DNA of 64,000 nt from positions 1 to 64,000 of the IMG/VR virus record IMGVR_UViG_3300031952_000008. The stretch is one strand, 5' to 3'. This DNA comes from a virus. The notes below the pieces were generated by a model. It had not been told where the DNA came from. It did not search any database and saw only the letters and a program-made list of their open reading frames with translations. Below, one piece after another: positions 10,544 to 52,584 of this stretch (positions within the stretch are counted from its first letter, which is position 1; each line of letters opens with the position of its first letter). Both the position numbers and the translations under genes were made by a program.

Positions 10544-10855
10544 ATGAAAATTAATATAAGTGCTAAAGAAGTTATTATAATCATAATGGGTTTGTTACTT
10601 GTAGGTTCTGGAGTGGCGAACTTTAAAGTTTATGATTATGGAATGGATAAAGGAACTGAGAAAGGTATTTTATTAGGAGCCCAAAGTGCTACTTTAAAAA
10701 CACAGGACGATTGTGCCAGAACAATACTTTTCCTACATAATGTAACTCAGGATAATTATATTAAGTATATAATTGACCAGAATGCTACGGAACAGATTTG
10801 GTTAACAACAAAAACCTTACAGAATAATACGGAGAGTGATTTAAATGGAAATTAA
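10544..10855 (+). CDS. membrane-anchored hypothetical protein
   Basis: AGGTGA SD; N-terminal TM; several NxT sequons. Confidence 0.6.
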   Translation: MKINISAKEVIIIIMGLLLVGSGVANFKVYDYGMDKGTEKGILLGAQSATLKTQDDCARTILFLHNVTQDNYIKYIIDQNATEQIWLTTKTLQNNTESDLNGN

Positions 10856-11462
10856 AGTATCAGATAAGTTTGCCAAAAAACTTCTAAAAACAATGTTTGA
10901 ACCAGTTGACCAATCCAGTTGGTATAAGACTACAGTTAATTGGATTACCGACAGTAAATATCGCAATTACACCAGACTAGATTCTTTCTTACAGGAACAG
11001 ATAGATAATCCAAATACCGAATTATTAGAAGAAGCACAAAGATATATTGGAATGGAATATGATGATATTATAGTAGCTATCCTTAAAGATGTTAAAGCAA
11101 GAGTAAAATATAGAACCGATAACTCTAATTATGGTATGGCTGAATATTGGGCACAAGCTTCTAAAACATTAGGAAAAGGTTATGGTGACTGTGATGATAT
11201 GAACTCATTAGTTTATGTATTAGCAAGATTGGCTGGAGTTCCTAGTTTTATGCTATATTGTGCAATCGGGGATACAAATCTTGGAGGACACTTTTGGTGT
11301 ATTTATTTTAGTCCAACCACTGGGTTGATGTATTCAATAGATACTACTTTCTATCCGGATGTTAATCCTTTATCAATTAGAAGACCTTTTGTAATCAATG
11401 ATAATGGTTATCAAAGTATTTGGTATCTTTTTAATGACAAAAGTGTGTGGTGTGGTAAATAA
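10845..11462 (+). CDS. transglutaminase-like cysteine protease (BTLCP/LapG-like)
   Basis: EYWAQASKTLGKGYGDCDD, GGHFW, SID: Cys-His-Asp triad. Confidence 0.8.
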   Translation: MEIKVSDKFAKKLLKTMFEPVDQSSWYKTTVNWITDSKYRNYTRLDSFLQEQIDNPNTELLEEAQRYIGMEYDDIIVAILKDVKARVKYRTDNSNYGMAEYWAQASKTLGKGYGDCDDMNSLVYVLARLAGVPSFMLYCAIGDTNLGGHFWCIYFSPTTGLMYSIDTTFYPDVNPLSIRRPFVINDNGYQSIWYLFNDKSVWCGK

Positions 11463-13775
11463 ATGTATCTAGTTGAAACCATTAATAAGTTTGGAATTAG
11501 TCAGTTAGTAGTGTTTAGTAGAGAGAATGGGGTTAAAAAAAAGGAATTAATTACAAGTTTTCGACCTTACTTTTTTGTAGAAGAAGATTGTATATTAGAA
11601 GATGATGCCGTGGTACGGGTAGAGAAAGGATTTGTAACTATTGATGATTTTAAAGTTAAAAAAGTATCTGTTAAAAGTACTAAAGATATGGTTAGATTAA
11701 GAGAGAATAGAAAGACTTGGATGAGCGATTTCAAGTTTGCTAATAGATATGTAGTAGATACTTATAAAGATATACCAGAAGAAGATTTAAAAGTAGGTTA
11801 TTTCGATATAGAAACTGATAGCGAAAATGTAATGCCTGATATAGTAAAGGCCGACCAAGCAATTACTTGTATGAGTATAGAAATATTAGGAACTCCAACT
11901 ACCTTTGTTTGGAGAGAAGATTTAAAGAAAGAAATTATAGGTGATATTAGATATTTTGATAATGAAGTTGAAATGTTAAAGGATTTTATAAAATTTATGA
12001 AAGAAGAAGATATAGATATACTATCAGGTTATTATATTAAAGGATTTGACTTACCTTATTTAATAAATAGGTGCACTAGACTGGATATCAATTATTCGGA
12101 TTTATCTCCTTTAAAAAATATTTATATAAGAGAAAATGATATAGATATTAAAGGATTAGTTATTTTAGATATACTAGAATTACTTAAGCATCCATTTATA
12201 AAGGATAGTGAAATGCCTAGTTATAGTTTGGATGATGTTGCTAAAGAAGTTTTAGGCGAACAAAAAATTAAACATACTCTTAGTTATAGACAGATGTGGC
12301 TTAAAGATTTACCTCAACTAATCAAATATAACATTAAAGATACTGAATTAGTTAGAAAAATTGATGAAAAGAAACATATTATCGAGTTCGTAGATATAGT
12401 AAGAAGAATTACAAAGTGCCAATTTGATAATTTTAAACCTTACCATGCTAAAGATGTTGATAAAGTATTTTATGGTACCTCCAATATTTTAGATTGTTAT
12501 ATGATGAGTACATTTCCTGGAATTATATTACCTAATAAAAGAAAGGAACCAGGCGTACCATTTGAAGGTGCGTTTATAATCGAACCAATACCAGGTTTGT
12601 ATGAGTATCTTATTTGTCTTGACCTAGAAGGACTATATACATCTATTATTAAAACTTTTAATATAAGTTATGAAACACTTGACCCTAATGGAGAGATTGA
12701 TGTTGGTGAAGGTATAAAATTTAAAAGAGAAAAGGGTTTCATTCCTAAATTGTTAGAGAAACAAAAGGTAGAAAGAGATTATTTTAAAAAACTAATGAAA
12801 GAATCTAAGACCGATGATGAAAGGGCTATGAATGACCAAAGACAGAAAGCCATAAAAATTTTGGGAAATGCGTTTTTTGGAATTCTTGGAAACAGAACTT
12901 CCAGACTTTATAAGACAGAACTTGCCTCTTCAGTTACTAGAATTGGTAGAGATATTATTAATCATACTATTAATACTGTTAAAGGAATGGGTTATAATGT
13001 TGTTTATGCCGATACCGATTCTAATTTTATAGAAGCTAAAAGCAAGACTAAAATAGGTGTTTTAAAAGAAGGAACTATGATAAGAAATGTTATTAATAAA
13101 AGCTATGATGAGTTTGTTAAAAGATTTAATGTAGAAAAGCATTACTTAAATATTCAATTTGAGAAAGCCATTGAACGAATGATTATGTTATATAAAAAGG
13201 GCGGAGACACAGGAGCTAAAAAAAGATATGCTTATAAGTTATTATGGTCAGAAAAATATTTTGACCCTAATAAACTTCATATGGTAGGAGTTGATGCCAT
13301 TAGGTCGGACCAAAATTTTATATCTAAAAATTTACAAACCACCGTTTTAGAAATGGTATTAGATGGTAAACCAGAATTGGAAGTTAAAGATTATTTAAGA
13401 AGTATAGAAAAAAGGATAAGAAATAAAGAATATATACTCGAACAAATAGGTTTTCCTGTTCAAATAACTAAAGAACTTAAAGAATATGATTCTAAAGGAC
13501 CCGTAGTAGTTGGAGCGTTATATAGCAATGAAATTTTAAAAACCAACTTCGGTAAAGGTAACAAACCTAAATGGTTACCTATTAAAGCAGTTATTGGCTA
13601 TCCAGATACTAAATATCTTACTTTTGAAACTGAAGTTCCTATAGGATTTAAGATTGATTATGATGAAGTAGTTAGAAAAACTATTAAAAGCAAGGTAGAA
13701 TCTATTTTTAAAACGGTTAATTGGGATTGGGAAGATTTATGTGTCGGTAATTCAAGTATTAAGAGGTGGTTGTAA
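11463..13775 (+). CDS. polB: family B DNA polymerase
   Basis: Exo motifs FDIET, GFDLPYL, YNIKD; pol motifs DLEGLY, KILGNAFFG, YADTDS, KKRY. Confidence 0.97.
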   Translation: MYLVETINKFGISQLVVFSRENGVKKKELITSFRPYFFVEEDCILEDDAVVRVEKGFVTIDDFKVKKVSVKSTKDMVRLRENRKTWMSDFKFANRYVVDTYKDIPEEDLKVGYFDIETDSENVMPDIVKADQAITCMSIEILGTPTTFVWREDLKKEIIGDIRYFDNEVEMLKDFIKFMKEEDIDILSGYYIKGFDLPYLINRCTRLDINYSDLSPLKNIYIRENDIDIKGLVILDILELLKHPFIKDSEMPSYSLDDVAKEVLGEQKIKHTLSYRQMWLKDLPQLIKYNIKDTELVRKIDEKKHIIEFVDIVRRITKCQFDNFKPYHAKDVDKVFYGTSNILDCYMMSTFPGIILPNKRKEPGVPFEGAFIIEPIPGLYEYLICLDLEGLYTSIIKTFNISYETLDPNGEIDVGEGIKFKREKGFIPKLLEKQKVERDYFKKLMKESKTDDERAMNDQRQKAIKILGNAFFGILGNRTSRLYKTELASSVTRIGRDIINHTINTVKGMGYNVVYADTDSNFIEAKSKTKIGVLKEGTMIRNVINKSYDEFVKRFNVEKHYLNIQFEKAIERMIMLYKKGGDTGAKKRYAYKLLWSEKYFDPNKLHMVGVDAIRSDQNFISKNLQTTVLEMVLDGKPELEVKDYLRSIEKRIRNKEYILEQIGFPVQITKELKEYDSKGPVVVGALYSNEILKTNFGKGNKPKWLPIKAVIGYPDTKYLTFETEVPIGFKIDYDEVVRKTIKSKVESIFKTVNWDWEDLCVGNSSIKRWL

Positions 13776-14662: not shown

Positions 14663-15271
14663 ATGAAAATATTATGTTTCGGCGCCCACCCTGATGATTT
14701 GGAGATTGGTATGGGAGGAACGATAAGTAAACTTATTAAACAAGGGCACGAGGTTCATATGTTTATATCTAGAGAATGTGAAGAAATTAGATTAGAAGAA
14801 CAGATGGAAAGTAAAGAAATACTAAAACCTTTTAGATTATATACAAATAACGAAACACCATTTACTTTCTATGATGAAAAAAGAATGGAAGAAGTAGGAG
14901 TAGTAACTAGATTAATTAGAGAAATTAAACCAGATAGAGTTTATATGCCTTGCATTTATGATAGTAATCAACATCACGAGGCTTTAGGTAAGATTATTCT
15001 TACATCACTTAGGCTTTCGGATATTAGTTGTTATATGTATAGTATGACTACCGTGAAAGGTTATACTATTGAAAAGTTTATTCCTCAAGTTTATGAAGAT
15101 ATTACAAACGAATTTATAACAAAAATTGAGGCAATAGGTTGTCATAGGTCACAAATAAAAAAGTGGCCAGACTATTTTAAGTATATTAAGGACAAGGATG
15201 CTCATAATGGTTTCGAGGTTGGGGTCAAGTATGCCGAGACTTTTTATGTTGTTAGAGAGGTTAGAAAATAA
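14663..15271 (+). CDS. PIG-L/LmbE family N-deacetylase
   Basis: GAHPDDLEIGMGGT, HxSQ, YAETF. Confidence 0.9.
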   Translation: MKILCFGAHPDDLEIGMGGTISKLIKQGHEVHMFISRECEEIRLEEQMESKEILKPFRLYTNNETPFTFYDEKRMEEVGVVTRLIREIKPDRVYMPCIYDSNQHHEALGKIILTSLRLSDISCYMYSMTTVKGYTIEKFIPQVYEDITNEFITKIEAIGCHRSQIKKWPDYFKYIKDKDAHNGFEVGVKYAETFYVVREVRK

Positions 15272-16965
15272 TGGAAATTAACCAAATTATATGCGAAGAT
15301 TGTATTTCTGGAATGAAGAAAATGGAAAAAGATTCAGTTGCCATTAGTATAACCTCTCCTCCTTATCGTGCAGGGGTAGATATTAGTAGCGGTAAAAAAA
15401 GTAAGTATGATATTTATAAAGATGACTTATCCGATGACGAGTATTATAAACTAATTAAAGAAAGCCTTACTGAGGCTATTAGAGTATCTAAGTATTATGT
15501 ATTTATGAACTTCCAGATTCTTTCCGGAACCAAGAAGGTTTGGAACCAGATAATGTGGGATTTTAAAGACAATATAAAAGAATACTTTGTGTGGGCAAAA
15601 ACTTGTAGCCAACCAGCAATTTGTGACTGCGTAGTTAGTTCAGGGTTTGAATTTATTATTTGTTTTACTAAACCCGAAATGGCTACTAAAAGAAAGTTCG
15701 AGTATTGTTTTTGGGATAACAGAGAAAAAGGTGCTAGAGTAGTATCTAACACCCTTATTTATCCACCAAATTTTGGGAATAGAACAGAAAACTTGGCCTG
15801 TTTAACTCCAGATACAGAAATTCTTACAATAGAGGGTTGGAAAAATTATAAGGAACTAGATTGCGAAAAAGGAACAAAAATAGCAAGTTATAATATAGAA
15901 ACGGGAAAGATAGAATATGAAAGATTAAGTTATTTACATGAATTAGATTTTGAAGGAAATTTAGTACAGATTACTAATAAAAGATTAGATATATTAATGA
16001 CACCAGACCACAGAAGTGTAATTAAAAGAAAAGGTAAAGAAATGATTGTTTTGGCCGACCAAATATCTAAAAAGGATAAAATAAGAATCGCCGCAGATTT
16101 TGATTATACAGTAATGGGAAGTATAGGAGAATCGTTTGCGGAATTGGTAGGTTGGATAATATCGGAAGGACATTTTATTAAATCAGAATATAATGGTAAA
16201 CAATATTCTCCCAATACGATAGGTATTTTTCAGAATAGAGGTAAAAAAAGTAAAAGAATAGAAGATTTGATTAAAAAATTAGAAATACCTTATTCTAAAA
16301 GAAAACACGGAAAAGGTTATGATTTTTATCTTAAAAAATCACCATTAATCGAATGGGTTTTAAAGAATATACCTGATAAACAACTTAATAGATTTTTGGT
16401 TTCTCTTCCTAAAAACGAAATTAAAAGACTATTTGAAGGTTTAGTATTGGGAGATGGTCATATTAGAAAAGATGGTAGAATTTGTTTTTCGCAAAAAAAT
16501 AAAAAAACAACTGACTGGTTTCAAATATTAGCTTTGAGATTGGGTTATAGTGCTATCATTACTAAAAGAAAAAATATTAATGTTGTTTATTTAAACAATA
16601 AAGATTGGATAGGAATATTAACTAATAAAAATAAAAGTATAATTAAAAGTAAATTTTACAAAGGTAAGGTTTGGTGTCCCACGGTTAGAAAAAACTATAC
16701 TTTTGTAGCTAGAAGAAACGGAAAACCATTTATAACAGGAAATTGTTTCCCTACTTGGCTTCCGGAGTTTTTTATCAAGAATTTCACTAGGGAGGGAGAT
16801 ACGGTTTTAGATTTCTTTGCCGGGACTTGCACCACCGCTAAAGTAGCCAAGCGTATGGGTAGAAACTATTTAGGGTTTGAAATAAGCCAGGGTTATATTG
16901 ATAAAGCTAATAAAGAATTAAGCGATATAATGGCTAAAGGAGAAGGTTTAGATAAATATATGTGA
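15271..16965 (+). CDS. beta-class amino (N4C/N6A) DNA methyltransferase containing an intein
   Basis: TSPPY precedes LDFFAGT; interrupted by an intein. Confidence 0.9.
   Translation: MEINQIICEDCISGMKKMEKDSVAISITSPPYRAGVDISSGKKSKYDIYKDDLSDDEYYKLIKESLTEAIRVSKYYVFMNFQILSGTKKVWNQIMWDFKDNIKEYFVWAKTCSQPAICDCVVSSGFEFIICFTKPEMATKRKFEYCFWDNREKGARVVSNTLIYPPNFGNRTENLACLTPDTEILTIEGWKNYKELDCEKGTKIASYNIETGKIEYERLSYLHELDFEGNLVQITNKRLDILMTPDHRSVIKRKGKEMIVLADQISKKDKIRIAADFDYTVMGSIGESFAELVGWIISEGHFIKSEYNGKQYSPNTIGIFQNRGKKSKRIEDLIKKLEIPYSKRKHGKGYDFYLKKSPLIEWVLKNIPDKQLNRFLVSLPKNEIKRLFEGLVLGDGHIRKDGRICFSQKNKKTTDWFQILALRLGYSAIITKRKNINVVYLNNKDWIGILTNKNKSIIKSKFYKGKVWCPTVRKNYTFVARRNGKPFITGNCFPTWLPEFFIKNFTREGDTVLDFFAGTCTTAKVAKRMGRNYLGFEISQGYIDKANKELSDIMAKGEGLDKYM
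15799..16743 (+). mobile_element. 315-aa intein with LAGLIDADG homing endonuclease
   Basis: Starts CLTPDTEILT; block B TPDH; LVGWIISEG and GLVLGDG; ends FITGN followed by Cys +1. Confidence 0.92.
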
Positions 16966-19426: not shown

Positions 19427-19437
19427 GTTTAGATAGA

Positions 19438-19455
19438 TTTAAATAGGTGAACATA
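19438..19455 (+). promoter_or_regulatory. TATA promoter of nrdD
   Basis: TTTAAATA-ggt-GAACATA. Confidence 0.65.
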
Positions 19456-19513: not shown

Positions 19514-21310
19514 ATGGTAGAAAAATTTATTAAGGAAACAGTAGAAAATTATGTCAATAGCAAGTCTTGGAGAATTGCCGAAAACGCTAATGCTCGTTGG
19601 AGTTATAGCGGGTTACAATCCTTTATAGCAGGGGCCGTTCTTTCCGATTACGCTCTTAATAACGTTTACACTCCAGAAATTAAAGAAGCTCATAAAGCCC
19701 ATTCTATCCATATACATGACCTTGATGGTGGTGGGAAGATATTTTATTGTTTAGGTCATAGCCTTAAGCAACTTCTTATAAAAGGATTTTGTGGCGTTCC
19801 AGGAAAGGTTTCAGCAAAACCAGCAAAACATTTCGATTCGGTATTGGGACAAATCGTTAATTATATAGGAACCCTCCAAAACGAGGCAAGTGGCGCCCAA
19901 GCTTTTAGTAGTTTTGATACTTACTTATGCCCCTTTATTAGGTATGATAATTTAAATCCTGAACAAGTTAAACAAGCACTTCAAGAGTTTATATTTAGTA
20001 TTAACCAATCCTGTAGATGGGGTAATCAAGTACCTTTCTTTAATATTACTTTAGACCTTAAGTGTCCGGAACCTTTAAAAGATAAGTTTGTTATTATAGG
20101 TGGTAAGGAGCAAAAAGAGAAATATGTGGATTTTCAAAAAGAACAAGATTTATTTAATAAGGCTTTAATTGATTTATTTATAGAAGGTGATAGTGATGGT
20201 AGACCATTTACCTTTCCTTTACCTACTATTAATTTAACCAAAGATTTTGATTGGGAAGGAGAAATTGCTCAAAAGATATTCTTTATGACAGGCAAGTATG
20301 GAACTCCCACTTTCCAAAACTTTATAAATAGTGATATGAAACCTGAGGATACTTACTCTATGTGCTGTCGTCTTAGATTAGATAAAAAATTATTAGAGAA
20401 AAAGACTGGCGGACTATTTGGAGCAGGAGAAATGACTGGAAGTATAGGCGTTGTTACTATTAATATGCCACAATTAGGGTTTAAAACTAAAGGTAGTGAA
20501 GAAAAGTTTTTTATTGAACTAGATAGGTTAATGGATATATCCTCTAAATCTTTAGAAATAAAAAGAAAAGAGATAGAGTATTCTCTTAAAATAGCTTTAA
20601 CTCCTTATACTAGGGAATATTTAGGTACAACAAGAAATCATTTTAGTACTATTGGTTTAAATGGTATGCATGAGTGTTGTTTGAATTTCTTAGGTAAAGA
20701 TAAGGGTATTGATACTAAAGAGGGTAAAGATTTTACTCTTAAAGTATTAGATTTTATGAGAGGAAAGTTAGTGGTTTATCAAGAGAAAACTGGCAATCTT
20801 TATAACTTAGAAGCTACACCAGCCGAAGGTACTAGTCATAGATTTGCCAGATATGATATAGAAAAGTTTCCTGATATAATTACTGCTGGTACAAAAACAA
20901 CTCCATACTATACCAATTCAACACAATTACCAGTTGATAAAGTTATTGATGTCTTTGATGCACTAACTCAACAGGATGAATTACAATGTAAATATACTGG
21001 TGGAACAGTATTTCATGCATTTATTGGGGAGAGATTACATGATTGGAGAACTACAAGAAATTTAGTTAAGAAGATAGCTGAGAACTTTAAATTACCATAC
21101 TTTACTATTAGTCCAACTTTTACTATTTGTAAAGAACATGGTTACATAAGTGGAGAACATTTTAAATGTCCTATAGATAAATGCGAACAACCTACAGAAG
21201 TTTATAGTCGTATTGTGGGATATTATAGACCCGTTCAACAATGGAATAAGGGGAAAAAAGCCGAGTTTCGTGAAAGAAACGAATTTAAGATAGAACAAGT
21301 TGATATTTGA
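19514..21310 (+). CDS. nrdD: anaerobic (class III) ribonucleoside-triphosphate reductase
   Basis: IHIHDL, SMCCRL, EATPAEG, C-terminal Zn site, glycyl-radical loop SRIVGYY. Confidence 0.95.
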   Translation: MVEKFIKETVENYVNSKSWRIAENANARWSYSGLQSFIAGAVLSDYALNNVYTPEIKEAHKAHSIHIHDLDGGGKIFYCLGHSLKQLLIKGFCGVPGKVSAKPAKHFDSVLGQIVNYIGTLQNEASGAQAFSSFDTYLCPFIRYDNLNPEQVKQALQEFIFSINQSCRWGNQVPFFNITLDLKCPEPLKDKFVIIGGKEQKEKYVDFQKEQDLFNKALIDLFIEGDSDGRPFTFPLPTINLTKDFDWEGEIAQKIFFMTGKYGTPTFQNFINSDMKPEDTYSMCCRLRLDKKLLEKKTGGLFGAGEMTGSIGVVTINMPQLGFKTKGSEEKFFIELDRLMDISSKSLEIKRKEIEYSLKIALTPYTREYLGTTRNHFSTIGLNGMHECCLNFLGKDKGIDTKEGKDFTLKVLDFMRGKLVVYQEKTGNLYNLEATPAEGTSHRFARYDIEKFPDIITAGTKTTPYYTNSTQLPVDKVIDVFDALTQQDELQCKYTGGTVFHAFIGERLHDWRTTRNLVKKIAENFKLPYFTISPTFTICKEHGYISGEHFKCPIDKCEQPTEVYSRIVGYYRPVQQWNKGKKAEFRERNEFKIEQVDI

Positions 21311-21319
21311 GGTGAGTTT

Positions 21320-21586
21320 ATGTTAGATGTTTATACAATGTTAATAATTATGTTAATAGTTTTAGGATTACAAATAGTGTTTTTCTTAACTAATATTTTT
21401 ATTTTAGGTTTTTGTTTATCTAAAGTATTAAGTGTTCCAACACCTAAACAAATTATTAAGGAAATAATGGATACAAAAGTACCTGTAGCCATGAATCCTA
21501 ATCAAATAACACCAGGTACATTACCACCAACAGATGAAAATATAAAACCTACAATTCCTAGAGGTAAAGATGGCTACTTTGGTTAA
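21320..21586 (+). CDS. membrane protein
   Basis: N-terminal TM; GAGGTGA SD. Confidence 0.6.
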   Translation: MLDVYTMLIIMLIVLGLQIVFFLTNIFILGFCLSKVLSVPTPKQIIKEIMDTKVPVAMNPNQITPGTLPPTDENIKPTIPRGKDGYFG

Positions 21587-21619
21587 GTTTCTTAGAAAGA
21601 TAGTAAAAGAGGCATTATA

Positions 21620-22015
21620 ATGGTAGAATGGATTGGCGTTCCTAAAGATATAACCAAGTATATAGGGTACACATATATTATAACTAACATACCAGAACGA
21701 AAGTTTTATATAGGGAAGAAACTATTCTTCTCAATTCGGAAGTTAAAGCCTTTAAAAGGAAAGAAAAATAAAAGACTAGTTCGAAAGGAGACAGATTGGA
21801 GAGACTATTATGGTTCCTGTAACGAACTTAATGCCGATATTGAACGGTTAGGGAAGGATAATTTTGAACGAGAAATACTCTCCTGTTACAAAACTAGATG
21901 GGAATGGAGTTACGCCGAACTAAAAGAACAGGTGGATAGAGATGTTTTACGCAGGAAAGATTTTTATAACGGAATAATTCGAGTTCGTTTACCTGGTTTT
22001 AAGAAGGATTTATAG
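21620..22015 (+). CDS. GIY-YIG family nuclease (Seg-like)
   Basis: GYTYIITN....FYIGKK, YYGS, FEREIL, FYN. Confidence 0.8.
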   Translation: MVEWIGVPKDITKYIGYTYIITNIPERKFYIGKKLFFSIRKLKPLKGKKNKRLVRKETDWRDYYGSCNELNADIERLGKDNFEREILSCYKTRWEWSYAELKEQVDRDVLRRKDFYNGIIRVRLPGFKKDL

Positions 22016-22061
22016 GAATTTATATAAAATTTATAAAAACTTTACGAAATCAACAGAAAGC

Positions 22062-22079
22062 TTTAAATACTAGAACTTG
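22062..22079 (+). promoter_or_regulatory. BRE-TATA promoter of the S-layer-like gene
   Basis: CAGAAAGC-TTTAAATA-cta-GAACTTG; predicts an approximately 130-nt leader. Confidence 0.65.
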
Positions 22080-22217
22080 TATATAGTAATTAAGGACGCT
22101 AAAAACAAGGTTAAATGCGTTCCTTTCTTAAAATATGGCTAAAGTTGAATGTTAAAGGGGATTGATTTCTTTGGCTTACAGCTAGTGGAACAATCTTATA
22201 AGCGAGGTTTAAACAAA

Positions 22218-23891
22218 ATGGAAATAAAAAAAGTTATGAAGGGAGTAGCGTTGGGGTCTTTAATGCTGGGTGCTACATTCTTAGCAGGATGTAACGGAGC
22301 AGTTATTGAACAGCAAAAGAACCAAATTGACGCTCTTAGTACAAAATTAGATAGTATGGCAACCAAGACAACAGGTCTTGAACAATCTGTATCAGATTTG
22401 ACTGATATAGCTAAAACACAGCAAGATATTGCTAAATCTATGGAATTGGCTAAAGAAGTTGCAGAGAAAAAGGCAACTGAAAACGATGCTAAAATCTTGG
22501 AAGATGCTAAATTAATAGAAGCATTACAAGGAGAGATAACAGGTCTTAAAGCTGAAGTTACTGTTGGTGCAGGAAGCGGAACAGGAAAAATTCTTGAAAT
22601 GGATTTTAATGAAGGCGAGAATACAACACTTGATGATTCAGACCTTGGTTTGATTAATGATGAAGTGGAATTTGATGGAGACGATTATGATGTTAAAGAG
22701 GAAGTAATCTTTACAGATGCTTTTAAACTAATGACATCAATAGAAGGCGATGAGAACTTTGCTGAGAAACCTTACTTGGTTACTACAGATGAAGGAGCTA
22801 TTGCTTACAAATACATTATAGAAGATGATTTGTTGGCTTCAGATATTTCCGAAGATGAACCATTGAACATAAAGTTCCTTGGTAAAGATATGGAAATTAT
22901 AAAAGCAAACAATGTTACTGGCGAGATAACTGTTAGAGAAGGAGCTAAATTCTTGATGGATGAAGGAGCAACCAAAACTATTACACTAGACGGAAAAGAC
23001 TATGTAGTCACCGTTGATTTTATTAGTGAAAATGGCGGAGCTAAATTTTCCATTAATGGACAAGTTACATCAACTCTAGATGAAGGCGAAACTGATGAGG
23101 CATCAGATATTGAAGTTTCTGTAATAGAAATCTTGGATAATGAAGCCGCTGAAGGAAGAGCAGACAAAGTAGAATTCTACCTAGGAGAGACTGTTTACAA
23201 AACAATCGCTGATGGGGACGAATATACTGAGGATGTTGAAGACTTTATCTATACAATAAAATTTGATGGAGCTAACCTAAGGAGTATCGGTGTCAGTTAT
23301 GATAGACAAGCAGATGACTTGGAAGACATCGAAGACGGTTTTGAACCTATCGCTATAGGAAAGGAATTAGTATTCCCTGAGGGTTATGTTAAAGTTAAAT
23401 TCTTGGGAGTTACAGATGTTAATTACAACCAATATGATTTGACACTTGAAGAACAAGGAGATACTCATATGCCAGTTGTTCAATTAGTATCTGATGACGA
23501 TAGAGGATTTAGTGTTGGTACTGAAGAAGTTAACAAGGTTAGAATTAATGCAACCAATGTTTTCTACAGGGATGACAATAATGATTGGATAACAGCAGAT
23601 TTGAATACATTAAAACTAACTTTTGAAGACACAGAATTAGGTGTAACTTATGTTGGTACAAAACTAAGTATCGGAAAATTAGATGTAGTTACTGACTTTA
23701 CAAAGTTAGGAGTTACAGAAGAACAATCCGAGCCTACAGAAATAGTCTATAACGGAGTTAGTCTAGGAACTAAAGAAGATAAAGTCTTGACAACTGATGG
23801 AGTTATCATAGCAGTAGAAGAGGATGAAGATAGATTCAGCTTCTCACTACCTGGTGATGACATCACAGGAGATGTTGAGGTTTATCAATAA
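22218..23891 (+). CDS. S-layer-like surface protein with lipobox-type signal peptide
   Basis: Signal ending FLAGC, coiled coil, then an acidic beta-rich body with IKFLGKDMEIIK and AKFSINGQVTSTLDEGET segments resembling euryarchaeal/DPANN S-layer proteins. Confidence 0.7.
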   Translation: MEIKKVMKGVALGSLMLGATFLAGCNGAVIEQQKNQIDALSTKLDSMATKTTGLEQSVSDLTDIAKTQQDIAKSMELAKEVAEKKATENDAKILEDAKLIEALQGEITGLKAEVTVGAGSGTGKILEMDFNEGENTTLDDSDLGLINDEVEFDGDDYDVKEEVIFTDAFKLMTSIEGDENFAEKPYLVTTDEGAIAYKYIIEDDLLASDISEDEPLNIKFLGKDMEIIKANNVTGEITVREGAKFLMDEGATKTITLDGKDYVVTVDFISENGGAKFSINGQVTSTLDEGETDEASDIEVSVIEILDNEAAEGRADKVEFYLGETVYKTIADGDEYTEDVEDFIYTIKFDGANLRSIGVSYDRQADDLEDIEDGFEPIAIGKELVFPEGYVKVKFLGVTDVNYNQYDLTLEEQGDTHMPVVQLVSDDDRGFSVGTEEVNKVRINATNVFYRDDNNDWITADLNTLKLTFEDTELGVTYVGTKLSIGKLDVVTDFTKLGVTEEQSEPTEIVYNGVSLGTKEDKVLTTDGVIIAVEEDEDRFSFSLPGDDITGDVEVYQ

Positions 23892-23893
23892 AT

Positions 23894-23917
23894 GGGAGCT
23901 TTTGCTCCCTCTTTTTT
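23894..23917 (+). terminator. hairpin plus U-tract terminator
   Basis: GGGAGC-TTTT-GCTCCC-TCTTTTTT just after the stop. Confidence 0.7.
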
Positions 23918-23957
23918 AGTAAAGTTTATTAAGTAAAGCTTGTGAGGAGATTTAAAA

Positions 23958-24197
23958 ATGGCCGATTCCGAAAAGAGACCACCAATTAGAGTGGATGATG
24001 AAGTAGATGTTGAAATAGAAAGTAGAGGTGCTAGAAGTGATGGCGTTGCTAAGTATGATGGTTTTATAATCTTCATACCAAATACTTCTGTAGGAGAGAA
24101 GGTAAAGGTTAAGGTTGAGAAGGTCTTCAAAAAATTCGCTATAGGCCGTCGGATGCTGGTTTCTGAAGATGATATTATTGTTACGAAAGACGAATAA
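23958..24197 (+). CDS. archaeal single-TRAM-domain RNA-binding protein
   Basis: PPI..DVEIES.G..SDGVAKYDGFIIFIP..VGEKVKVKVEKVFKKFA. Confidence 0.9.
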   Translation: MADSEKRPPIRVDDEVDVEIESRGARSDGVAKYDGFIIFIPNTSVGEKVKVKVEKVFKKFAIGRRMLVSEDDIIVTKDE

Positions 24198-24209
24198 AGG
24201 TGAAATATA

Positions 24210-24506
24210 ATGATACCATTTGGAACAATATTAGTAGGACTAGGCTCAGGCCTTTCCAGAGCTTTGGTAGGATATGTTAAAAACTTACCAGATAGTACAA
24301 AAGATAACTCAATAGATTGGGTAAAAGCCGCTCCTGCTTTGATAGTAGGTGCAGGTATAGGAATTTATGGAGCAGTTGCAGGTGCAGACTTTATGACCGC
24401 TGAAGCTTTCCTAGCCTCTACAGGTGTAACTTATCTAGTAGGAGAGATATATAACACAATATATAAGGCTATAGTTGCTAAGAAATTAGTTGTTAACGCC
24501 AAGTAA
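24210..24506 (+). CDS. small multi-TM membrane protein (holin-like?)
   Basis: Two to three Gly/Ala-rich hydrophobic helices and a basic C-terminus. Confidence 0.55.
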   Translation: MIPFGTILVGLGSGLSRALVGYVKNLPDSTKDNSIDWVKAAPALIVGAGIGIYGAVAGADFMTAEAFLASTGVTYLVGEIYNTIYKAIVAKKLVVNAK

Positions 24507-24516
24507 AAATTAACTC

Positions 24517-24642
24517 CCTAAGGTCGTAATTGACCTTAGGCCTGTTAAGTTTCTCTATTTCTCGACCTAATTAAAAGCCATTAGAGCAACGATTATTTTG
24601 GCCTACATATATCATGTCTAATTAATAATCGTTCTCCTAATG
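24517..24642. repeat. two inverted repeats at the convergence of the + and - gene blocks
   Basis: CCTAAGGTC/GACCTTAGG (24517-24540); AACGATTATT/AATAATCGTT within an imperfect IR 24579-24642. Confidence 0.7.
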
Positions 24643-24723
24643 TCACCAGAATTGGCCAGAATTGATTTTCTAAGCGTAGAATTATGCTATATTAACTACT
24701 ATATAGTTGTAAAACTTTTACGA

Positions 24724-26226
24724 TTATTTGTATAGTACACAAATCTTAGAATATGTGGCACCAGCAAACATTTTTTTAATTCTAACCTTAAGTTGATTAC
24801 CAGCCGTTGTAAAAGTAAAAATTTGACCGGAACCAGGAACTATACCTTCCCAATTCAATCCATCATCATTACAAACTTCCCACTCATCTTCTTCTGTATC
24901 AGGATAGTTACCTAAATATCTAACCTCACATTGAGTAATATTGTTCTCCGAGGTTGTAGTAGGACTAGTAGCTTTTCCATCCGATGCAGGACTAGTAACT
25001 ATTAAATATCCTTGTTCAGAAACTTCGGTATTTTCATAGGTCCAAGTAGGAGTAGTAATTTCATTAATAAAATCAATAGTATAACTATTAGTCATATCAT
25101 TTAAATTAACAAAAGGTCTAATAACTTTTTCCGCATCAATTCTATCCTTAAACAATTTAGACATATTAATAGTTCTTTCATTAATATCAATGGTAGAATA
25201 GAACCCACCCTCATCCCAAATATGTGTTAAAGTTTGAATTCTATACCAACCCGAAACGCCACAATAAGGAACTTGACAATCTACTTGCTCCCCAGGGTTA
25301 AGAACCTGAAGACCTAAAGCAGATAAATTACCAAGGTCAGGAAGACTGGTTGTAATACTAAGTTCAGCATTAGCTTTTTCTTGAACAAGAGTCATATTTT
25401 TAAGAGTAGAATCTGAAACTACCTCATCCTTTCTCCAAACATCAGTTTGACTAGGAATATCTTCTTCCGTCTTTAAATAAACAATTCCGCCATCTTCTTC
25501 TCCATAAACAGTAACTCTATTTTTTAAAATATCATAATCTTTACCAAACCTATCTATTCCTTTAAGATTAACTCCAATAGCAATACTTGTTTCCTCACTT
25601 TTTATACTGTTTTGAGAAAAAACATGAAGGTCTCCGGTATTATCGATATAACAATCAGCATTGCACCTTTTACAAATATCTACTATAGCACTCCAACCAC
25701 TAACGTTAGAATAATTATTAGTAATCCTAGTAGTAAGTGCCGAAACATTTATATAAGTAACTACCCCACTAAAATGGTCATCAATAATGGCTTTTATTCC
25801 ATCACTACCTAATTGGTTAACTAATTCTTGAATAATTAATTGGTCGGATAATTCAGGACAACTTTTACTTTCTATATTAATTAAATAACCATTCATATCA
25901 AGACTGTATTGGCAATTAGTAACTTTTCCTTTAAAAATCTTAGTAGTTAAACCATCTTCATAATCTGCCCATATTTCTAATACATCACCAGCATCAAAAA
26001 TATCAAGCCATTCGCCTTCACTATTATCTAAAACAACTTCAGCAGTAGGAAGAGCCTCGGTGGCCGGAAGAATAACTCGGAAATTTAAGGCATAATCACT
26101 AACATCGTAAACCATACCAGTTTCGCCATCAGTAATCTTGATAGTTCTATAAGGAGTGGCGTAAGCATCACTAAGAAAGATAACACCATGTTCTCCTCTA
26201 TTATATCTATCGCTAGTATCTCCCAT
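24724..26226 (-). CDS. tail tip/baseplate hub-like protein
   Basis: KIFKGKV..YID..GDLH..LKNRVTVYG..LNPGEQV..YRIQTLTH pattern; distal end of the tail operon. Confidence 0.65.
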   Translation of the reverse strand: MGDTSDRYNRGEHGVIFLSDAYATPYRTIKITDGETGMVYDVSDYALNFRVILPATEALPTAEVVLDNSEGEWLDIFDAGDVLEIWADYEDGLTTKIFKGKVTNCQYSLDMNGYLINIESKSCPELSDQLIIQELVNQLGSDGIKAIIDDHFSGVVTYINVSALTTRITNNYSNVSGWSAIVDICKRCNADCYIDNTGDLHVFSQNSIKSEETSIAIGVNLKGIDRFGKDYDILKNRVTVYGEEDGGIVYLKTEEDIPSQTDVWRKDEVVSDSTLKNMTLVQEKANAELSITTSLPDLGNLSALGLQVLNPGEQVDCQVPYCGVSGWYRIQTLTHIWDEGGFYSTIDINERTINMSKLFKDRIDAEKVIRPFVNLNDMTNSYTIDFINEITTPTWTYENTEVSEQGYLIVTSPASDGKATSPTTTSENNITQCEVRYLGNYPDTEEDEWEVCNDDGLNWEGIVPGSGQIFTFTTAGNQLKVRIKKMFAGATYSKICVLYK

Positions 26227-26227
26227 T

Positions 26228-29200
26228 TTATTCTATCTCTCCAAAGGTATAAGCATCATCAGTTTCAACACATCCCGAGCACCTCTTAATGAACATAAAA
26301 TAAGGAAGTTCCACAAATCCTCCACCAGTACAACTGAAATTAGTATAAGTACTGATGTTCTTAACTTGGTTAATTCCTGTAAAATTCATAAATAACTGGG
26401 GAGTAGTATTTAAAATTATAGTATAATCATTACTTACAAACCTATTCTTGATACAAGTATTTGAAAGACTTTCATTATACCTAAGATAAACACTAAAATT
26501 ATCAGTTGAATGACTAGTCACATTCCAGAAAGGATTACCGCCCATAGGGGCAACATTCTTACTGGTTGCACTTTTAGGGGAAACATACCATTCATTCATT
26601 CCTTTAGGAATAATAGATATAGTAAAATTGGAAAGTAAAACACTAGCATATAAATCATCATCAAAATAGTATTTAGTTCCGCCAATATTATAAAATCCTC
26701 TAATTCTAAAGTTTTGACCGGATAGATTTCCAAAAATAAATCTTAAGTCTGAAAAATTAATATTACCATTTTGTGTAGTAGTTGTATTAAAAGGAACAGT
26801 TATTTCTCCGCTAGTTGGATTACTAACTCCTGTATAAATAACTATATTAGATAAATTAATTTGACTATCTTCTTCCGAAGTAAACCTTATTGGAATAGTA
26901 CAACTTCCTTCGGTCATACAATTACTTTGTATATAATGATTTAACTCTCCTCTATCCAAATTTAATACCCAAGAACTATTAAGTTCGCCATTATAATTAT
27001 GTGAATAATCAGAAGAATTACCTATATAAACTTTAAGATTATAAGGATACCTATTTGCTATAACTTCCTTATCACTACTATTTTTATTAAAATCCGAGTA
27101 AAGTTTAACGGAACAATTCCAAGTTTCCCCAACATGACTACCATTAACTTGTATGGTAGAATTATAATTATATTCTGTAGTTAAAGGAGGAATACCTATT
27201 TCATTTTCGGTATATTTAGCAGTAGTTCCATTATAAAAAGTAATATTTATATAATAAGGTCCCATAGCTTCTTCATCAATATCTATACCAATAGAACAAC
27301 TAAAATTTGAACTAGCATAAAACTTAGCCGAACCACTATTATCTTTTTTAATCAAATCTACCTTAGATATAGTACTCCAGAAATTATCATAAGTAACATT
27401 AGTATAACTTGTATCAAACGTAAAATCGCCCAAACTACCAGGAGTACTATTAGCAACAATTTTAGGAGAACTAATAGCAACATTAGTATCCAAAGCACTA
27501 ACAGGAGTAAAGTCCATATTCTGTAATAATAACCTAGTTGTTGTAATACTTAAAGTATTAGAAGGAGCAGTACCTAAATAAACTGTTGAGTTTTTAAATA
27601 TTACTTCGGGAGAGGTTATAATAGCTAAAGTATTATTATTTAATATAGATATTAATTGTGAATATTTCAATTCAAATAAGTCGCCAGTGGAAACAAGCAT
27701 AAAGGAACCATAAGAAGTAGAAGTATCGGAAACAAAAACAAGACTACTACCAGCATCCGCTATAAAATCCCCATAAGTTGTTAATATATTATTACCGCTT
27801 TCATCTCCTATAAATCCTATAGAAATTAAACTGGTATTATAAAAATCTATATCATCATAACTAATAAAACTAGTATCTCCTCCAGTAGTAGAAAATGAAC
27901 AACCAATACCAAAACCACCACCTGAAAGAGAAATATCGCTATCATTAAAAACTGTTTTATCATAAGTATAAAATTTTACATCTCCACCTTTACAACCATC
28001 ATCTCCTACATCATTACCACTAATACCTCCAACAGTAGTAAAGGTTGATTTATAAGAATTTATAGTATTATAAAAATAGGTATATACATCTCCTCCATCT
28101 CCACCATCTGCATCTCCACTATTTATACTTGCCGCATTTCCACCTTCTCCACCAGTAGCGGTTAAGATACCCTCGCATCGTTCATTAGAGTAAGATTCAT
28201 TATAACCATAATAATCTGCGTATATATGACCACCATTTCCACCATAAGACGCTCTACTAGTAAGATAATTACATTTAATAGCACCAGCATTACTACCTTC
28301 TCCAGCAGTTAATGTAACATCAAAATTGGTAATATTAGCATAGTTTTCGTAAAAATTATAATAAATATTTCCACCAACCTGTCCTTCTTCGACAGAATAA
28401 GCAGTACTACCTGTTCCACATCTAGAACAACAAACTGATGCATCATCAGGGTGAGCACCAGTAGAACTAAGTGTTGAATTTATTATTTTAATATCATAAA
28501 ATTGGAAAGTAATATTAGCATCTAAAGGAACATAACCCATAGTATTATCATCCGCGGTTCCGGTATCTCCAGTAGCACAACTAGTGGCACATTGTGCATC
28601 GTTATCTCCAGCATCGCCAGGAATCATAACTGTATCAAAATTATAAATATCATCGGTTCCATTACCTATATTTTCCCAAAATAAAGTACTTACTCCACCT
28701 TGACCGCCATTCGTATTTTCAGAAAGTTCACAAGTATCCCAACCATATGTACTATAGGCAATAACTCCATTTCCTCCATCTCCATTAGTAAAAGTCATAC
28801 TAACATCATCAATATTAGAAGTATTATCATAAATATAATAATAAGTTTTTCCACCAGCACCACCATTTGCACTAGCAGAAGTACAATTATCGGTAATAGA
28901 ACCAGTTTTGGCATTACCACCTTTTCCTCCTATCAATAAAATAGTTACATTATTAAGAGTTAAACTATGTGAAGCATTTAATATAAAAATAGCAGAACCA
29001 CCAGCACCACCCTCAGTTGCTATATTAGTAGGAGTAGAACCATCACCACCATTTCCACCTGTAATAGTAATTATAGCATCCTTAATTTCAATATCTTCTG
29101 CGGTAATATTTAAAATACCATCAATACCAGGATTTGGAGGAGAATAACCATTAGCACCATTATTACCAATAATAGTAATAATACCAGTAAGATAAACCTT

Positions 29201-52566: not shown

Positions 52567-52584
52567 AATCTTCCAGTATATAAA
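52567..52584 (-). promoter_or_regulatory. TATA promoter of the morphogenesis operon
   Basis: Minus strand CGAAACA-TTTATATA-ctg-GAAGATT. Confidence 0.7.

What the first reader, a model, noticed from the sequence alone, without database searches (positions are those of the whole stretch)
22062..23917. Virus-encoded S-layer-like lipoprotein in its own expression unit
Seen: a dedicated BRE-TATA promoter, an approximately 130-nt leader with a stem (AAGGACGC..GCGTTCCTT), a lipobox-like LAGC, a ~90-aa coiled-coil stalk, an acidic S-layer-like body and a terminator. Inference: the virus inserts its own lattice protein into the host envelope, for superinfection exclusion by receptor masking or to alter host-symbiont contact.
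Basis: partly seen in the sequence, partly recalled or inferred. Interest (0 to 1): 0.72.

Follow-up and report, generated by a model that had tools for sequence, protein, structure and literature searches.

The report
Virus-encoded, membrane-anchored S-layer tile copy
A roughly 100-kb tailed archaeal virus from sediment encodes a lipid-anchored, stalked copy of the central lattice domain of the S-layer (cell-coat) protein of DPANN archaea; the gene family is large, was found here mostly in viruses, was not found in the papers searched, and its role (probably altering the infected cell's coat) is untested.

Summary
Window 22218-23891 (+) encodes a 557-aa protein with four parts: a lipobox signal (LAGC, Cys25), an 89-residue predicted helix, a very acidic 436-aa beta-rich body (pI 4.05), and a hairpin plus T-run terminator. 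A BRE/TATA-type motif lies upstream and recurs before other genes of this virus. The leader stem is no better than chance.

The body is homologous over its full length to the central domain of about 700-aa PF05124 S-layer proteins of DPANN archaea. Its best structural match is the Methanosarcina S-layer tile domain (3u2h, Z 9.4). The viral protein lacks the N/C S-layer domain and carries a membrane anchor and stalk instead.

This stalked form has hundreds of diverged relatives. Every relative with informative flanks sits in a related tailed virus, at the junction of the replication and tail modules. Four of six capsid-related IMG/VR records carry it, but a 111-kb relative with terminal repeats has no match. 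Between near-identical viruses the gene is a recombination mosaic.

Assembly chimerism is unlikely. Function and host are not shown. My best guess is coat remodelling that blocks adsorption. The main rival is an S-layer-breaching lysis role.

The scan found the same thing on two other viral genomes (e1-5895226, e1-5895211).

The parts
22056..22069 (+). BRE/TATA-type promoter motif GAAAGCTTTAAATA (TATA box at 22062-22069)
   Evidence: The motif GAWASNTTTAWATA has 6 sites in the window against 0.2 expected. Four lie directly upstream of genes (one search shows similar motifs before genes beyond the window).
22092..22125 (+). Imperfect hairpin at the inferred 5' end of the leader (AAGGACGC ... 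GCGTTCCTT, one bulged T)
   Evidence: Present in the minimum-free-energy fold, but the leader's z-score is -1.1, so it is not above chance. No conservation data.
22204..22208 (+). Shine-Dalgarno-like GAGGT, 9 nt before ATG 22218
   Evidence: Read directly from the sequence.
22218..22292 (+). Signal peptide with lipobox LAGC (residues 1-25; Cys25 is the predicted lipid attachment site)
   Evidence: A lipobox or TM anchor is present in 119 of 120 complete relatives.
22293..22580 (+). Stalk: one long predicted helix (residues 29-117) plus a Gly/Ser-rich linker
   Evidence: AlphaFold2 secondary structure. Heptad register count. Only coiled-coil families hit this part.
22581..23888 (+). Acidic beta-rich body (residues 122-557), homologous to the central tile domain of DPANN S-layer proteins
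   Evidence: pLDDT above 90. The body HMM aligns positions 3-430 of 430 with the cellular PF05124 proteins. Best fold match 3u2h: Z 9.4, 212 residues aligned. Foldseek E 2e-4, probability 1.0.
23889..23891 (+). Stop codon TAA
23894..23917 (+). Terminator-like hairpin GGGAGC-TTTT-GCTCCC followed by TCTTTTTT
22391..23281 (+). Mosaic (recombinant) patch: 70-91% identical to the near-identical virus contig L012, whose tail genes are 99-100% identical
   Evidence: dS about 0.5 with dN/dS 0.2 here, against dS 0 in the next 150 codons. Two alleles coexist in run X2 at 22772-23136.
21620..22015 (+). Upstream neighbour: GIY-YIG-type homing endonuclease-like gene
   Evidence: PHROG hits to homing endonucleases.
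23958..24197 (+). Downstream neighbour: 79-aa TRAM-domain protein, also a divergent patch against L012
   Evidence: Pfam TRAM, E 9e-12. 72-81% identity patch.
24210..24506 (+). 98-aa protein with hydrophobic segments (possible holin-like membrane protein; inference only)
   Evidence: No family hit. Small 1-2 TM proteins lie beside the homologous gene in L018, L019, L021 and L023.
24724..26226 (-). Last gene of the convergent tail module (distal tail / Prophage_tail-like protein)
   Evidence: PHROG tail-protein hits. Weak Pfam Prophage_tail hit. Homologues lie beside the S-layer-like gene in L002, L021 and L023.
10845..11462 (+). Transglutaminase-core cysteine-protease-like gene. Its homologues are adjacent to the S-layer-like gene in related viruses
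   Evidence: Pfam Transglut_core. Adjacent in L019, L023, L035 and L036. A 641-aa Transglut_core protein lies beside a lipobox+body gene in L045.

Best explanation
What it is (well supported): the gene encodes a Sec-exported protein. It is held on the outer face of the infected cell's membrane by an N-terminal lipid anchor at lipobox Cys25. A predicted helix of about 13 nm lifts it off the membrane. At the far end sits a copy of the central beta-sandwich 'tile' domain of the S-layer protein used by DPANN archaea and class I methanogens. The N/C-terminal PF05124 domain of the cellular proteins has been replaced by this self-contained anchor and stalk. The gene has its own archaeal-type promoter and terminator. 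It is an accessory gene, common but not universal in a large lineage of roughly 60-110-kb tailed viruses, and it lies where the replication module meets the tail module.

How it most likely works (inferred): during infection the tile domain is displayed at the height of the host's S-layer and sits in or under that lattice. This changes or masks the surface that virions of this lineage recognise. Masking would block superinfection and keep progeny from being wasted on infected cells and debris. That is the logic of phage T5's receptor-blocking lipoprotein Llp, but here built from a copy of the host coat itself. Recombination keeps swapping the N-terminal half of the body, as expected for a part that must match a variable host surface.
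For: Shown:
- Viral context.
- Lipobox, helix and acidic body.
- An N-terminal anchor in 119 of 120 relatives.
- End-to-end homology of the body to PF05124 S-layer proteins, found as one full-length copy in each of five small archaeal MAGs labelled Woesearchaeota, Aenigmatarchaeota, 'archaeon' and Methanosarcinales, and in 83 of 301 genomes of the Woesearchaeota MAG's phylum.
- Fold match to the Methanosarcina tile domain.
- A preprint states that this MSTP-like fold forms the hexagonal S-layers of DPANN archaea and class I methanogens (10.1101/2024.05.28.596244).
- The Micrarchaeum S-layer protein has the same N/C-plus-central-domain build and is among its most abundant proteins (10.1101/2021.04.28.441871).
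- The position is conserved, next to and convergent with the distal tail genes, in L002, L021 and L023, with viral genes beside it in L012, L019 and L020.
- 4 of 6 capsid-related virus records carry it.
- Own promoter motif and terminator.
- Mosaic divergence inside otherwise 99-100% identical genomes, and two alleles in one sample.

By analogy: T5 Llp is a lipoprotein that blocks the receptor FhuA (PMC9586334).
Against: - No expression, localisation or binding data exist.
- The host is unknown. The capsid gene was found in only 1 of 401 genomes of that phylum, and weakly.
- The protein lacks the PF05124 domain, so whether it can enter a lattice is open.
- The divergent patches are under purifying selection (dN/dS 0.15-0.35). 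They show recombination, not an arms race as such.
- The neighbourhood fits a lysis role equally well: small membrane proteins, and in relatives a transglutaminase-like protease.
- A relative with terminal repeats has no match, so the function is dispensable.
- Anchored forms without the N/C domain also exist on a cellular contig (L043), so the architecture is not purely viral.
Confidence: 0.4

Rival explanations
1. Egress factor. The protein spans the gap between membrane and S-layer. At the end of infection, together with a holin-like membrane protein and a transglutaminase-like protease, it weakens or tears the S-layer so that virions can leave. It would be a functional analogue of bacterial spanins, or a lattice 'poison'.
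For: - The build (N-terminal TM or lipobox, then a long coiled coil, then a distal domain aimed at the outermost layer) parallels Rz/Rz1 and unimolecular spanins (established knowledge).
- There is a weak PHROG hit to Rz-like spanin, E 0.0046.
- Small 1-2 TM proteins lie next to the gene here and in L018, L019, L021 and L023.
- A transglutaminase-core protease-like gene is adjacent in L019, L023, L035 and L036, and beside a lipobox+body gene in L045.
- The enzymes that methanogen viruses use to cut pseudomurein have a transglutaminase-like catalytic domain (from memory).
Against: - The spanin hit covers only the anchor and coiled coil, and no stretch passes on its own.
- In this window the protease-like gene is 11 kb away.
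- The gene is on the strand of the replication module, not the late structural module.
- None of the small membrane proteins has a family match.
- No archaeal spanin-like system is known to me.
Confidence: 0.3
2. Surface remodelling for the host's symbiosis. The displayed tile domain changes how the infected DPANN cell attaches to its own partner cell (or to other cells), for the virus's benefit.
For: - Cellular homologues of the body were found in DPANN MAGs.
- S-layers are thought to mediate DPANN-host contact (10.1101/2023.10.27.564410; 10.1101/2021.04.28.441871).
Against: The host is not identified. Nothing in the sequence points to a partner-cell ligand.
Confidence: 0.1
3. Virion component. 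The tile domain is a receptor-binding or tail-associated module that docks into the host S-layer by mimicking it.
For: - The gene abuts the distal tail genes.
- A related architecture (type C: signal peptide, beta domain, body, C-terminal TM) lies inside tail modules of other viral contigs, beside tape-measure, tube and head genes.
Against: - Tailed virions assemble in the cytoplasm, whereas 119 of 120 relatives have an export signal with a lipobox or a membrane anchor.
- The gene has its own promoter and terminator and is convergent to the tail genes.
- The BFVD viral structure library gave no convincing match.
Confidence: 0.07
4. Artefact: a host S-layer gene fragment joined to viral DNA by misassembly.
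For: Short-read assemblies of other samples break up within 22100-24400.
Against: - A 12,339-nt Logan contig covers 20674-26500 with no difference. It may come from the source sample but was made by another assembler.
- The JGI contigs L012 and L013 join the gene to the same downstream viral genes.
- Diverged homologues occupy the same place in L002, L021 and L023.
- The gene carries the virus's own promoter motif.
- GC content matches the flanks.
- The fragmentation coincides with coexisting alleles.
Confidence: 0.02

Closest known systems
PF05124/PF05123 archaeal S-layer proteins (DPANN and Methanococcales type; e.g. Micrarchaeum harzensis SLP; here the roughly 700-aa proteins at L007:9671-11767 and L010:9692-11875)
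   Same: The whole 436-aa body is homologous to their central domain: HMM positions 3-430 of 430 align, at about 25-30% identity. Both are exported, acidic and beta-rich.
   Different: The cellular proteins have an ordinary signal peptide and an N-terminal plus C-terminal segment that together match PF05124, with the body as a large insert. The viral protein has neither segment. It has a lipobox, a long helix, and ends where the body ends.
Methanosarcina acetivorans S-layer protein MA0829, DUF1608 / MSTP tile domain (PDB 3u2g, 3u2h)
   Same: Best structural match: Foldseek E 2e-4 with probability 1.0; VIA Z 9.4 and 9.0; 212-225 residues aligned across model residues 118-557. Residues 241-325 also resemble a sheet of class II fusion proteins at Z about 8. 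As I recall, that resemblance was noted for MA0829 itself.
   Different: No sequence-level match to PF07752. 13% identity and rmsd 5.7-7.3 A. MA0829 has two tandem DUF1608 repeats and a C-terminal anchor (from memory).
Phage T5 Llp and other superinfection-exclusion lipoproteins (Cor, Ltp)
   Same: All are virus-encoded lipoproteins displayed on the infected cell. The gene lies next to the host-recognition end of the tail module. Their proposed role is to block adsorption (PMC9586334; Cor and Ltp from memory).
   Different: No sequence or fold relation. Llp is a small protein that binds a receptor from the periplasmic side, whereas this one is 557 aa and is a copy of the coat protein. Function here is untested.
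Spanins (Rz/Rz1; unimolecular spanin of T1)
   Same: An N-terminal membrane or lipid anchor plus coiled coil that reaches the outermost envelope layer. Small membrane proteins lie nearby.
   Different: Only a weak hit (E 0.0046) limited to the anchor and helix. Archaea have no outer membrane to fuse. No recognisable endolysin is adjacent in this window.
SlaB of Sulfolobales and other stalked S-layer anchors
   Same: A membrane-anchored coiled-coil stalk holding a lattice domain above the membrane (10.1101/2023.10.27.564410 describes SlaA/SlaB).
   Different: SlaB is anchored at its C-terminus and carries a separate lattice protein, SlaA (from memory). Here stalk and tile domain are one chain, anchored at the N-terminus, and encoded by a virus.

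Membership tests
PF05124/PF05123 archaeal S-layer protein family | N-terminal and C-terminal segments that together match PF05124 (S_layer_C, 'outer domain') | tested here: not met
   No Pfam hit for P0001 even at E up to 1. The protein ends at the end of the body. The cellular homologues L007, L010, L004 and L008 pass the gathering score.
PF05124/PF05123 archaeal S-layer protein family | Central beta-rich domain homologous to that of the cellular S-layer proteins | tested here: met
   The body HMM aligns positions 3-430 of 430 with type A proteins at full-protein scores of 215-316 bits. BLASTP gives 34-35% identity over 112-157 residues to P0005 and P0008. The profile finds it in 83 of 301 genomes of the Woesearchaeota MAG's phylum.
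PF05124/PF05123 archaeal S-layer protein family | Forms the two-dimensional cell-surface lattice | not testable with these tools
   Needs microscopy or biochemistry.
MSTP / DUF1608 S-layer tile domain (PF07752) | Sequence match to PF07752 | tested here: not met
   No hit at E up to 1. No PDB sequence hit to the body.
MSTP / DUF1608 S-layer tile domain (PF07752) | Same beta-sandwich fold | tested here: met
   3u2h and 3u2g are the top matches in three searches: Z 9.4 and 9.0, Foldseek probability 1.0. Z is only modestly above the usual background of 7-8, so this rests on the sequence link as well.
Lipobox lipoproteins | Basic n-region, hydrophobic h-region, then [LVI][ASTVI][GAS]C | tested here: met
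   MEIKKVMKGVALGSLMLGATF-LAGC. A lipobox is present in 78 of 120 complete relatives and replaced by a TM anchor in 41.
Lipobox lipoproteins | Actual lipid modification by the host | not testable with these tools
   The host is unknown. A lipobox+body protein on a contig binned with a genome of the Woesearchaeota MAG's phylum (L045) hints that such cells use the signal.
Superinfection-exclusion lipoproteins (T5 Llp type) | Gene next to the receptor-binding or tail-tip genes | tested here: met
   Convergent with the last tail gene, 833 nt away. Same arrangement in L002, L021 and L023. Which tail gene binds the receptor is unknown.
Superinfection-exclusion lipoproteins (T5 Llp type) | Blocks adsorption or DNA entry of the same virus | not testable with these tools
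   Needs a cultured host.
Spanins | Membrane or lipid anchor plus periplasm-spanning coiled coil | tested here: met
   This is an architectural resemblance only.
Spanins | Part of a lysis cassette with holin and endolysin | tested here: inconclusive
   Small TM proteins and, in relatives, a transglutaminase-like protease are adjacent. None is an identified holin or lysin. PHROG 739 hit at E 0.0046 with no passing stretch.

The most novel reading that the evidence does not exclude
The stalked tile protein is an archaeal counterpart of a spanin. Tethered to the membrane and plugged into the host's S-layer lattice through its mimic domain, it is the device, possibly triggered by the neighbouring small membrane protein and a transglutaminase-like protease, that opens the S-layer for release of tailed virions. 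That step of archaeal virus egress has no known factor.
Probability: 0.25. Interest if true: 0.8.

Novelty: new variant of a known kind. Interest (0 to 1): 0.62.

Why it matters
S-layers are the only wall of most archaea. They are the first thing a virus meets and the last it must cross, yet I found no report of a virus carrying its own S-layer homologue.

This family is large. The search with this protein found 497 clusters at 50% identity, and most of the best 150 are of this stalked form. In this dataset its genomic context, where readable, was viral. That gives three uses:
- A concrete candidate for how tailed archaeal viruses manipulate or breach the coat.
- A possible marker linking an abundant, host-less lineage of roughly 100-kb sediment and groundwater viruses to hosts with MSTP-type S-layers (DPANN or class I methanogens).
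- A natural example of an S-layer tile domain re-mounted on a self-contained anchor, which could be expressed in a model methanogen.

If the protein turns out to be an ordinary host-derived surface protein of no consequence, the finding is still a useful annotation for hundreds of 'hypothetical' viral genes.

Tried and rejected
- The 60-sequence alignment A1 was too diverged for the search for related loci. The 13-sequence A2 worked. Its genome and metagenome scans rested on one peptide pattern and its viral scan on two, so counts of loci are not prevalence.
- Complex prediction with two copies of the body returned 'no answer' (score 0.00). This is no evidence either way.
- The look-up of sequencing runs listed no RNA holder, so expression could not be examined.
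- BFVD viral structure library: no convincing match, TM-scores 0.14 or lower for long alignments.
- PDB sequence searches hit only coiled coils.
- Host assignment through binning failed. The capsid protein was found in 1 of 401 genomes of the Woesearchaeota MAG's phylum, and only weakly. Capsid homologues in the protein database carry no organism names. The listing of cluster members gave no taxon names for the stalked form.
- Leader RNA structure is not above shuffled controls. I reject it as evidence of regulation, but not as a possibility.
- Positive selection: pairwise dN/dS is 0.15-0.54 in the divergent patches. The only value above 1 rests on 8 substitutions at the C-terminus, so diversifying selection is not shown.
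- Sigma-70-type promoter scan is below shuffle expectation, in line with an archaeal host.
- 'Only in viruses' is rejected as too strong. L043 is a cellular contig (ribosomal protein S7, Ogg) with a TM-anchored body protein that lacks the coiled coil.
Full report
**The object**

The window is the first 64 kb of a 94,280-bp IMG/VR virus record, linear and estimated 82% complete. It is a tailed virus. It has a portal gene (51047-52492, -), an HK97-type capsid gene (47957-48988, -), a tail tube gene (40564-41700, -), a tape measure gene (36459-39521, -), family B DNA polymerase (11463-13775, +) and an anaerobic ribonucleotide reductase (19514-21310, +).

The flagged gene is the open frame 22149-23891 on the + strand. 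I place its start at ATG 22218 for two reasons. GAGGT lies 9 nt upstream. The N-terminus then reads MEIKKVMKGVALGSLMLGATFLAGC, a textbook lipoprotein signal whose M-x-x-KK beginning is shared by the homologues. The product (P0001) has 557 residues.

- Lipobox: L-A-G-C, with the protein's only cysteine at position 25.
- Stalk: AlphaFold2, run with a 60-sequence alignment, predicts a single helix over residues 29-117 at moderate confidence. Hydrophobic residues peak in one heptad register.
- Body: residues 122-557 form an all-beta body at pLDDT above 90. The body has pI 4.05, 24.5% Asp+Glu and three N-x-S/T sequons.
- Terminator: a GC-rich hairpin followed by TCTTTTTT lies 3 nt after the stop (23894-23917).
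- Promoter: GAAAGCTTTAAATA lies at 22056-22069. Generalised to GAWASNTTTAWATA, the motif occurs six times in the window against 0.2 expected. Four sites sit directly upstream of genes in the right orientation: NrdD, this gene, the portal gene and the gene at 52771. Similar motifs precede genes beyond the window. This is good evidence for a working archaeal-type promoter, and the sigma-70-type scan is below chance.
- Leader stem: it exists, but the leader folds no better than shuffled sequence (z = -1.1). I do not count it as a feature.
- Leader length: about 125 nt, inferred from the usual TATA-to-start distance, not measured.

**What the body is**

Pfam and PDB sequence searches find nothing but coiled-coil noise. 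A word-seeded search gave three full-length relatives. It also gave weak local hits (34-35% over 112-157 residues) to roughly 850-aa proteins carrying PF05124, the archaeal 'S-layer like family'. One of their clusters contains a Nanoarchaeota MAG protein.

The exhaustive HMMER search found 497 cluster representatives (302 at E below 1e-10), most of them 500-560 aa and aligned over the full length.

A profile of the body alone aligns end to end (positions 3-430 of 430) with roughly 700-aa proteins in archaeal MAGs labelled Aenigmatarchaeota, Woesearchaeota and Nanoarchaeia. Those proteins pass Pfam's threshold for PF05124. The model matches their N-terminal and C-terminal segments, so the body is a large insert between them. 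Five of these MAGs, 0.5-1.3 Mb in size, each have one full-length copy. In 301 sampled genomes of the Woesearchaeota MAG's phylum, 83 have a match, mostly in frames of 650-830 aa.

The model's best structural match, in three searches, is the DUF1608 tile domain of the Methanosarcina acetivorans S-layer protein:
- Foldseek E 2e-4, probability 1.0.
- VIA Z 9.4 and 9.0, with 212-225 residues aligned across model residues 118-557.

On its own this Z is only a little above background. Together with the sequence link it is convincing.

A preprint reports that this 'MSTP-like beta-sandwich' builds the hexagonal S-layers of class I methanogens and of Altiarchaeota, Aenigmatarchaeota, Nanoarchaeota and Micrarchaeota (10.1101/2024.05.28.596244). 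The abundant S-layer protein of Micrarchaeum harzensis has the same N/C-plus-central-domain build (10.1101/2021.04.28.441871).

So 'S-layer-like' is right, with a qualification. The viral protein holds only the central tile domain. In place of the N/C domain it has a membrane anchor and stalk.

**Three architectures, and where they live**

The body occurs in three settings.

- Type A is the cellular S-layer protein described above.
- Type B is the window's form: an N-terminal lipobox or uncleaved TM anchor, a coiled coil, then the body, ending at the body's end. Of 120 complete distinct examples, 78 have a lipobox, 41 have a TM anchor only, and 1 has neither.
- Type C has a signal peptide, an N-terminal beta domain, the body, a Pro/Cys-rich linker and a C-terminal TM helix.

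Every type B locus with readable flanks lies among homologues of this virus's genes:
- L002 (a 109-kb viral record) and L023 have PolB upstream and the distal tail gene and tape measure convergent downstream.
- L021 has the tail gene next door.
- L019 has the tail tube gene.
- L020 has three homologues of this virus's genes.
- L012 is a near-identical virus.

The capsid protein is 60-86% identical across more than 100 database clusters on contigs up to 111 kb. Of six capsid-related IMG/VR records, four carry a type B gene (L002, L076-L078). A 111-kb record with direct terminal repeats has no match, so the gene is common but dispensable.

Type C loci are also viral. Their neighbours hit tape measure, major head, tube and neck families.

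The ESM Atlas look-up agrees with this picture. The nearest cluster is labelled mostly viral (Uroviricota), and the next nearest are Nanobdellota.

The stalk-less anchored form is not exclusively viral. L043 is a contig with ribosomal protein S7 and Ogg that encodes a 480-aa TM-anchored body protein. L045, a short contig binned with a genome of the Woesearchaeota MAG's phylum, encodes a lipobox+body protein.

A tree of the body domain puts the window's protein in a well-supported clade of 28 type B sequences. That clade is sister, with weaker support, to the main cellular clade. A second type B clade groups with type C. Branches are long throughout. This is an old viral family, not a recent theft. 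The root, and therefore the direction of transfer, is not established.

**Is it an assembly chimera?**

Unlikely.
- A 12,339-nt Logan contig from run X1 covers 20674-26500 without a single difference, bridging NrdD, the homing endonuclease, this gene, the TRAM gene and the tail gene. It may come from the source sample but was made by another assembler.
- The JGI contigs L012 and L013, from other samples, join the gene to the same downstream genes.
- The position is conserved in diverged relatives.
- The gene carries the virus's own promoter motif.

**A recombination hot spot**

L012 is 99-100% identical to the window from 24478 onward, and also across 23282-23731. It is only 70-91% identical across 22391-23281 (end of the stalk and N-terminal half of the body) and 72-81% across the TRAM gene.

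In the divergent patch dS is about 0.5 with dN/dS 0.2. The next 150 codons have dS 0. That pattern is imported sequence, not local mutation, and the protein stays under purifying selection.

In run X2 two alleles coexist at 22772-23136, one with 0 differences and one with 49. The tail genes in the same run assemble as one contig with two differences. Assemblies of three samples fragment exactly over this gene.

**Neighbourhood**

The gene stands between a GIY-YIG-type homing endonuclease gene and a TRAM-domain gene. Next comes a 98-aa hydrophobic protein of no known family (24210-24506), and then the convergent tail module. Small proteins with one or two TM segments lie beside the type B gene in L018, L019, L021 and L023.

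A transglutaminase-core, cysteine-protease-like gene lies at 10845-11462 in the window. Its homologues are directly adjacent to the type B gene in L019, L023, L035 and L036, and a larger one adjoins the lipobox+body gene of L045. I did not test that.

**How it most likely works**

The export signal and N-terminal anchor are the most conserved architectural features, present in 119 of 120 relatives. The protein is therefore made to sit on the outside of the infected cell's membrane, not in a cytoplasmically assembled virion. An 89-residue helix is about 13 nm long, enough to hold the tile domain at about the height of an S-layer. That height is an inference.

From there two readings are about equally natural.

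1. Surface conversion. The tile domain sits in or under the host lattice and masks or alters what the virus binds. This would exclude superinfection and spare progeny, like T5 Llp (PMC9586334). Three points favour it slightly: the gene is on the replication-module strand, it has its own promoter, and it lies next to the host-recognition end of the tail module.

2. Egress. The protein bridges membrane and S-layer and helps open the lattice at lysis, together with the small membrane protein and the protease-like enzyme. The spanin-like build and the recurrent neighbours favour it.

The mosaic exchange fits either reading, since both need the viral domain to match a variable host coat. A role in the DPANN cell's attachment to its partner is possible but has no specific support. 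A virion role is unlikely.

The host itself is not shown. The capsid gene is essentially absent from 401 genomes of the Woesearchaeota MAG's phylum, as expected for a lytic virus, and no named relatives turned up. The archaeal-type promoters, and the restriction of the body's cellular homologues to archaeal (mostly DPANN) MAGs in the samples searched, make a DPANN or class I methanogen host the reasonable guess.

**Novelty**

Four full-text searches found no report of a virus-encoded S-layer homologue. These searches cover open-access papers and bioRxiv only. The fold and the cellular family are known. A viral, self-anchored version with hundreds of members is a new variant.

This scan reached the same conclusion on two other viral genomes (e1-5895226, e1-5895211), so this window is a further member, not the first sighting. 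My data soften one of their statements: anchored forms without the N/C domain also occur on a cellular contig.

Noticed in passing
window 19432-19445, 21699-21712, 22056-22069, 25742-25755, 52577-52590 (-), 52721-52734: The motif GAWASNTTTAWATA (BRE plus TATA box) occurs 6 times against 0.2 expected. Four sites precede genes. One lies inside the GIY-YIG gene and one lies antisense inside a tail gene. It could serve to map this virus's transcription units.
   Followed up: partly
window 23882-24327, compared with L012: The small TRAM-domain gene and the start of the 98-aa membrane protein gene form a second divergent patch (72-91% identity) between otherwise 99-100% identical viruses. Runs X2 and X3 show 85 bases here replaced by 88 others.
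   Followed up: partly
L003:9341-11563, L028:9377-11515, L031:6665-8794, L025:1695-3830: A third architecture of the same body (signal peptide, N-terminal beta domain, body, Pro/Cys linker, C-terminal TM with a basic tail) lies co-oriented inside tail modules of other viral contigs. In L028, L029, L031 and L032 a homologue of window gene 35077-36063 lies a few kb downstream (partial in L025). An exported, membrane-anchored protein among tail genes is odd.
   Followed up: partly
window 10845-11462; L019:2248-2928, L023:7736-8320, L036:35-769, L045:2756-4678: Transglutaminase-core (cysteine protease or PNGase-like) genes recur next to genes for the anchored S-layer body, in viruses and on a contig binned with a genome of the Woesearchaeota MAG's phylum. 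The two may work together.
   Followed up: partly
G405 (IMGVR_UViG_3300033145_001087, 111,430 bp, direct terminal repeats): A capsid-related virus record with terminal repeats has no match to the body profile. What occupies the replication/tail junction there was not examined.
   Followed up: no
L043:9787-11229 (-) and L045:80-1738 (-): Genomes of the Woesearchaeota MAG's phylum hold body proteins without the PF05124 N/C domain. One is 480 aa and TM-anchored, on a contig with ribosomal protein S7 and Ogg. One is a 552-aa lipobox protein with an acidic linker. They may be cellular paralogues of the S-layer protein.
   Followed up: partly
window 15271-16965: A DNA methylase gene interrupted by an intein with a LAGLIDADG endonuclease domain (Pfam N6_N4_Mtase, Intein_splicing, LAGLIDADG_3).
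   Followed up: no
window 20200-20900 (inside NrdD): Many short contigs from four sediment runs match only 50-60-nt stretches and then run on into unrelated sequence, with summed depth up to 34. These are probably conserved NrdD motifs of other organisms, not variants of this virus.
   Followed up: no
window 859-1344: A 161-aa ORF rich in Cys with repeated C-D-N-S-T-x-C units. It was the only other ORF picked up by a loose lipobox pattern and is probably not a lipoprotein.
   Followed up: no
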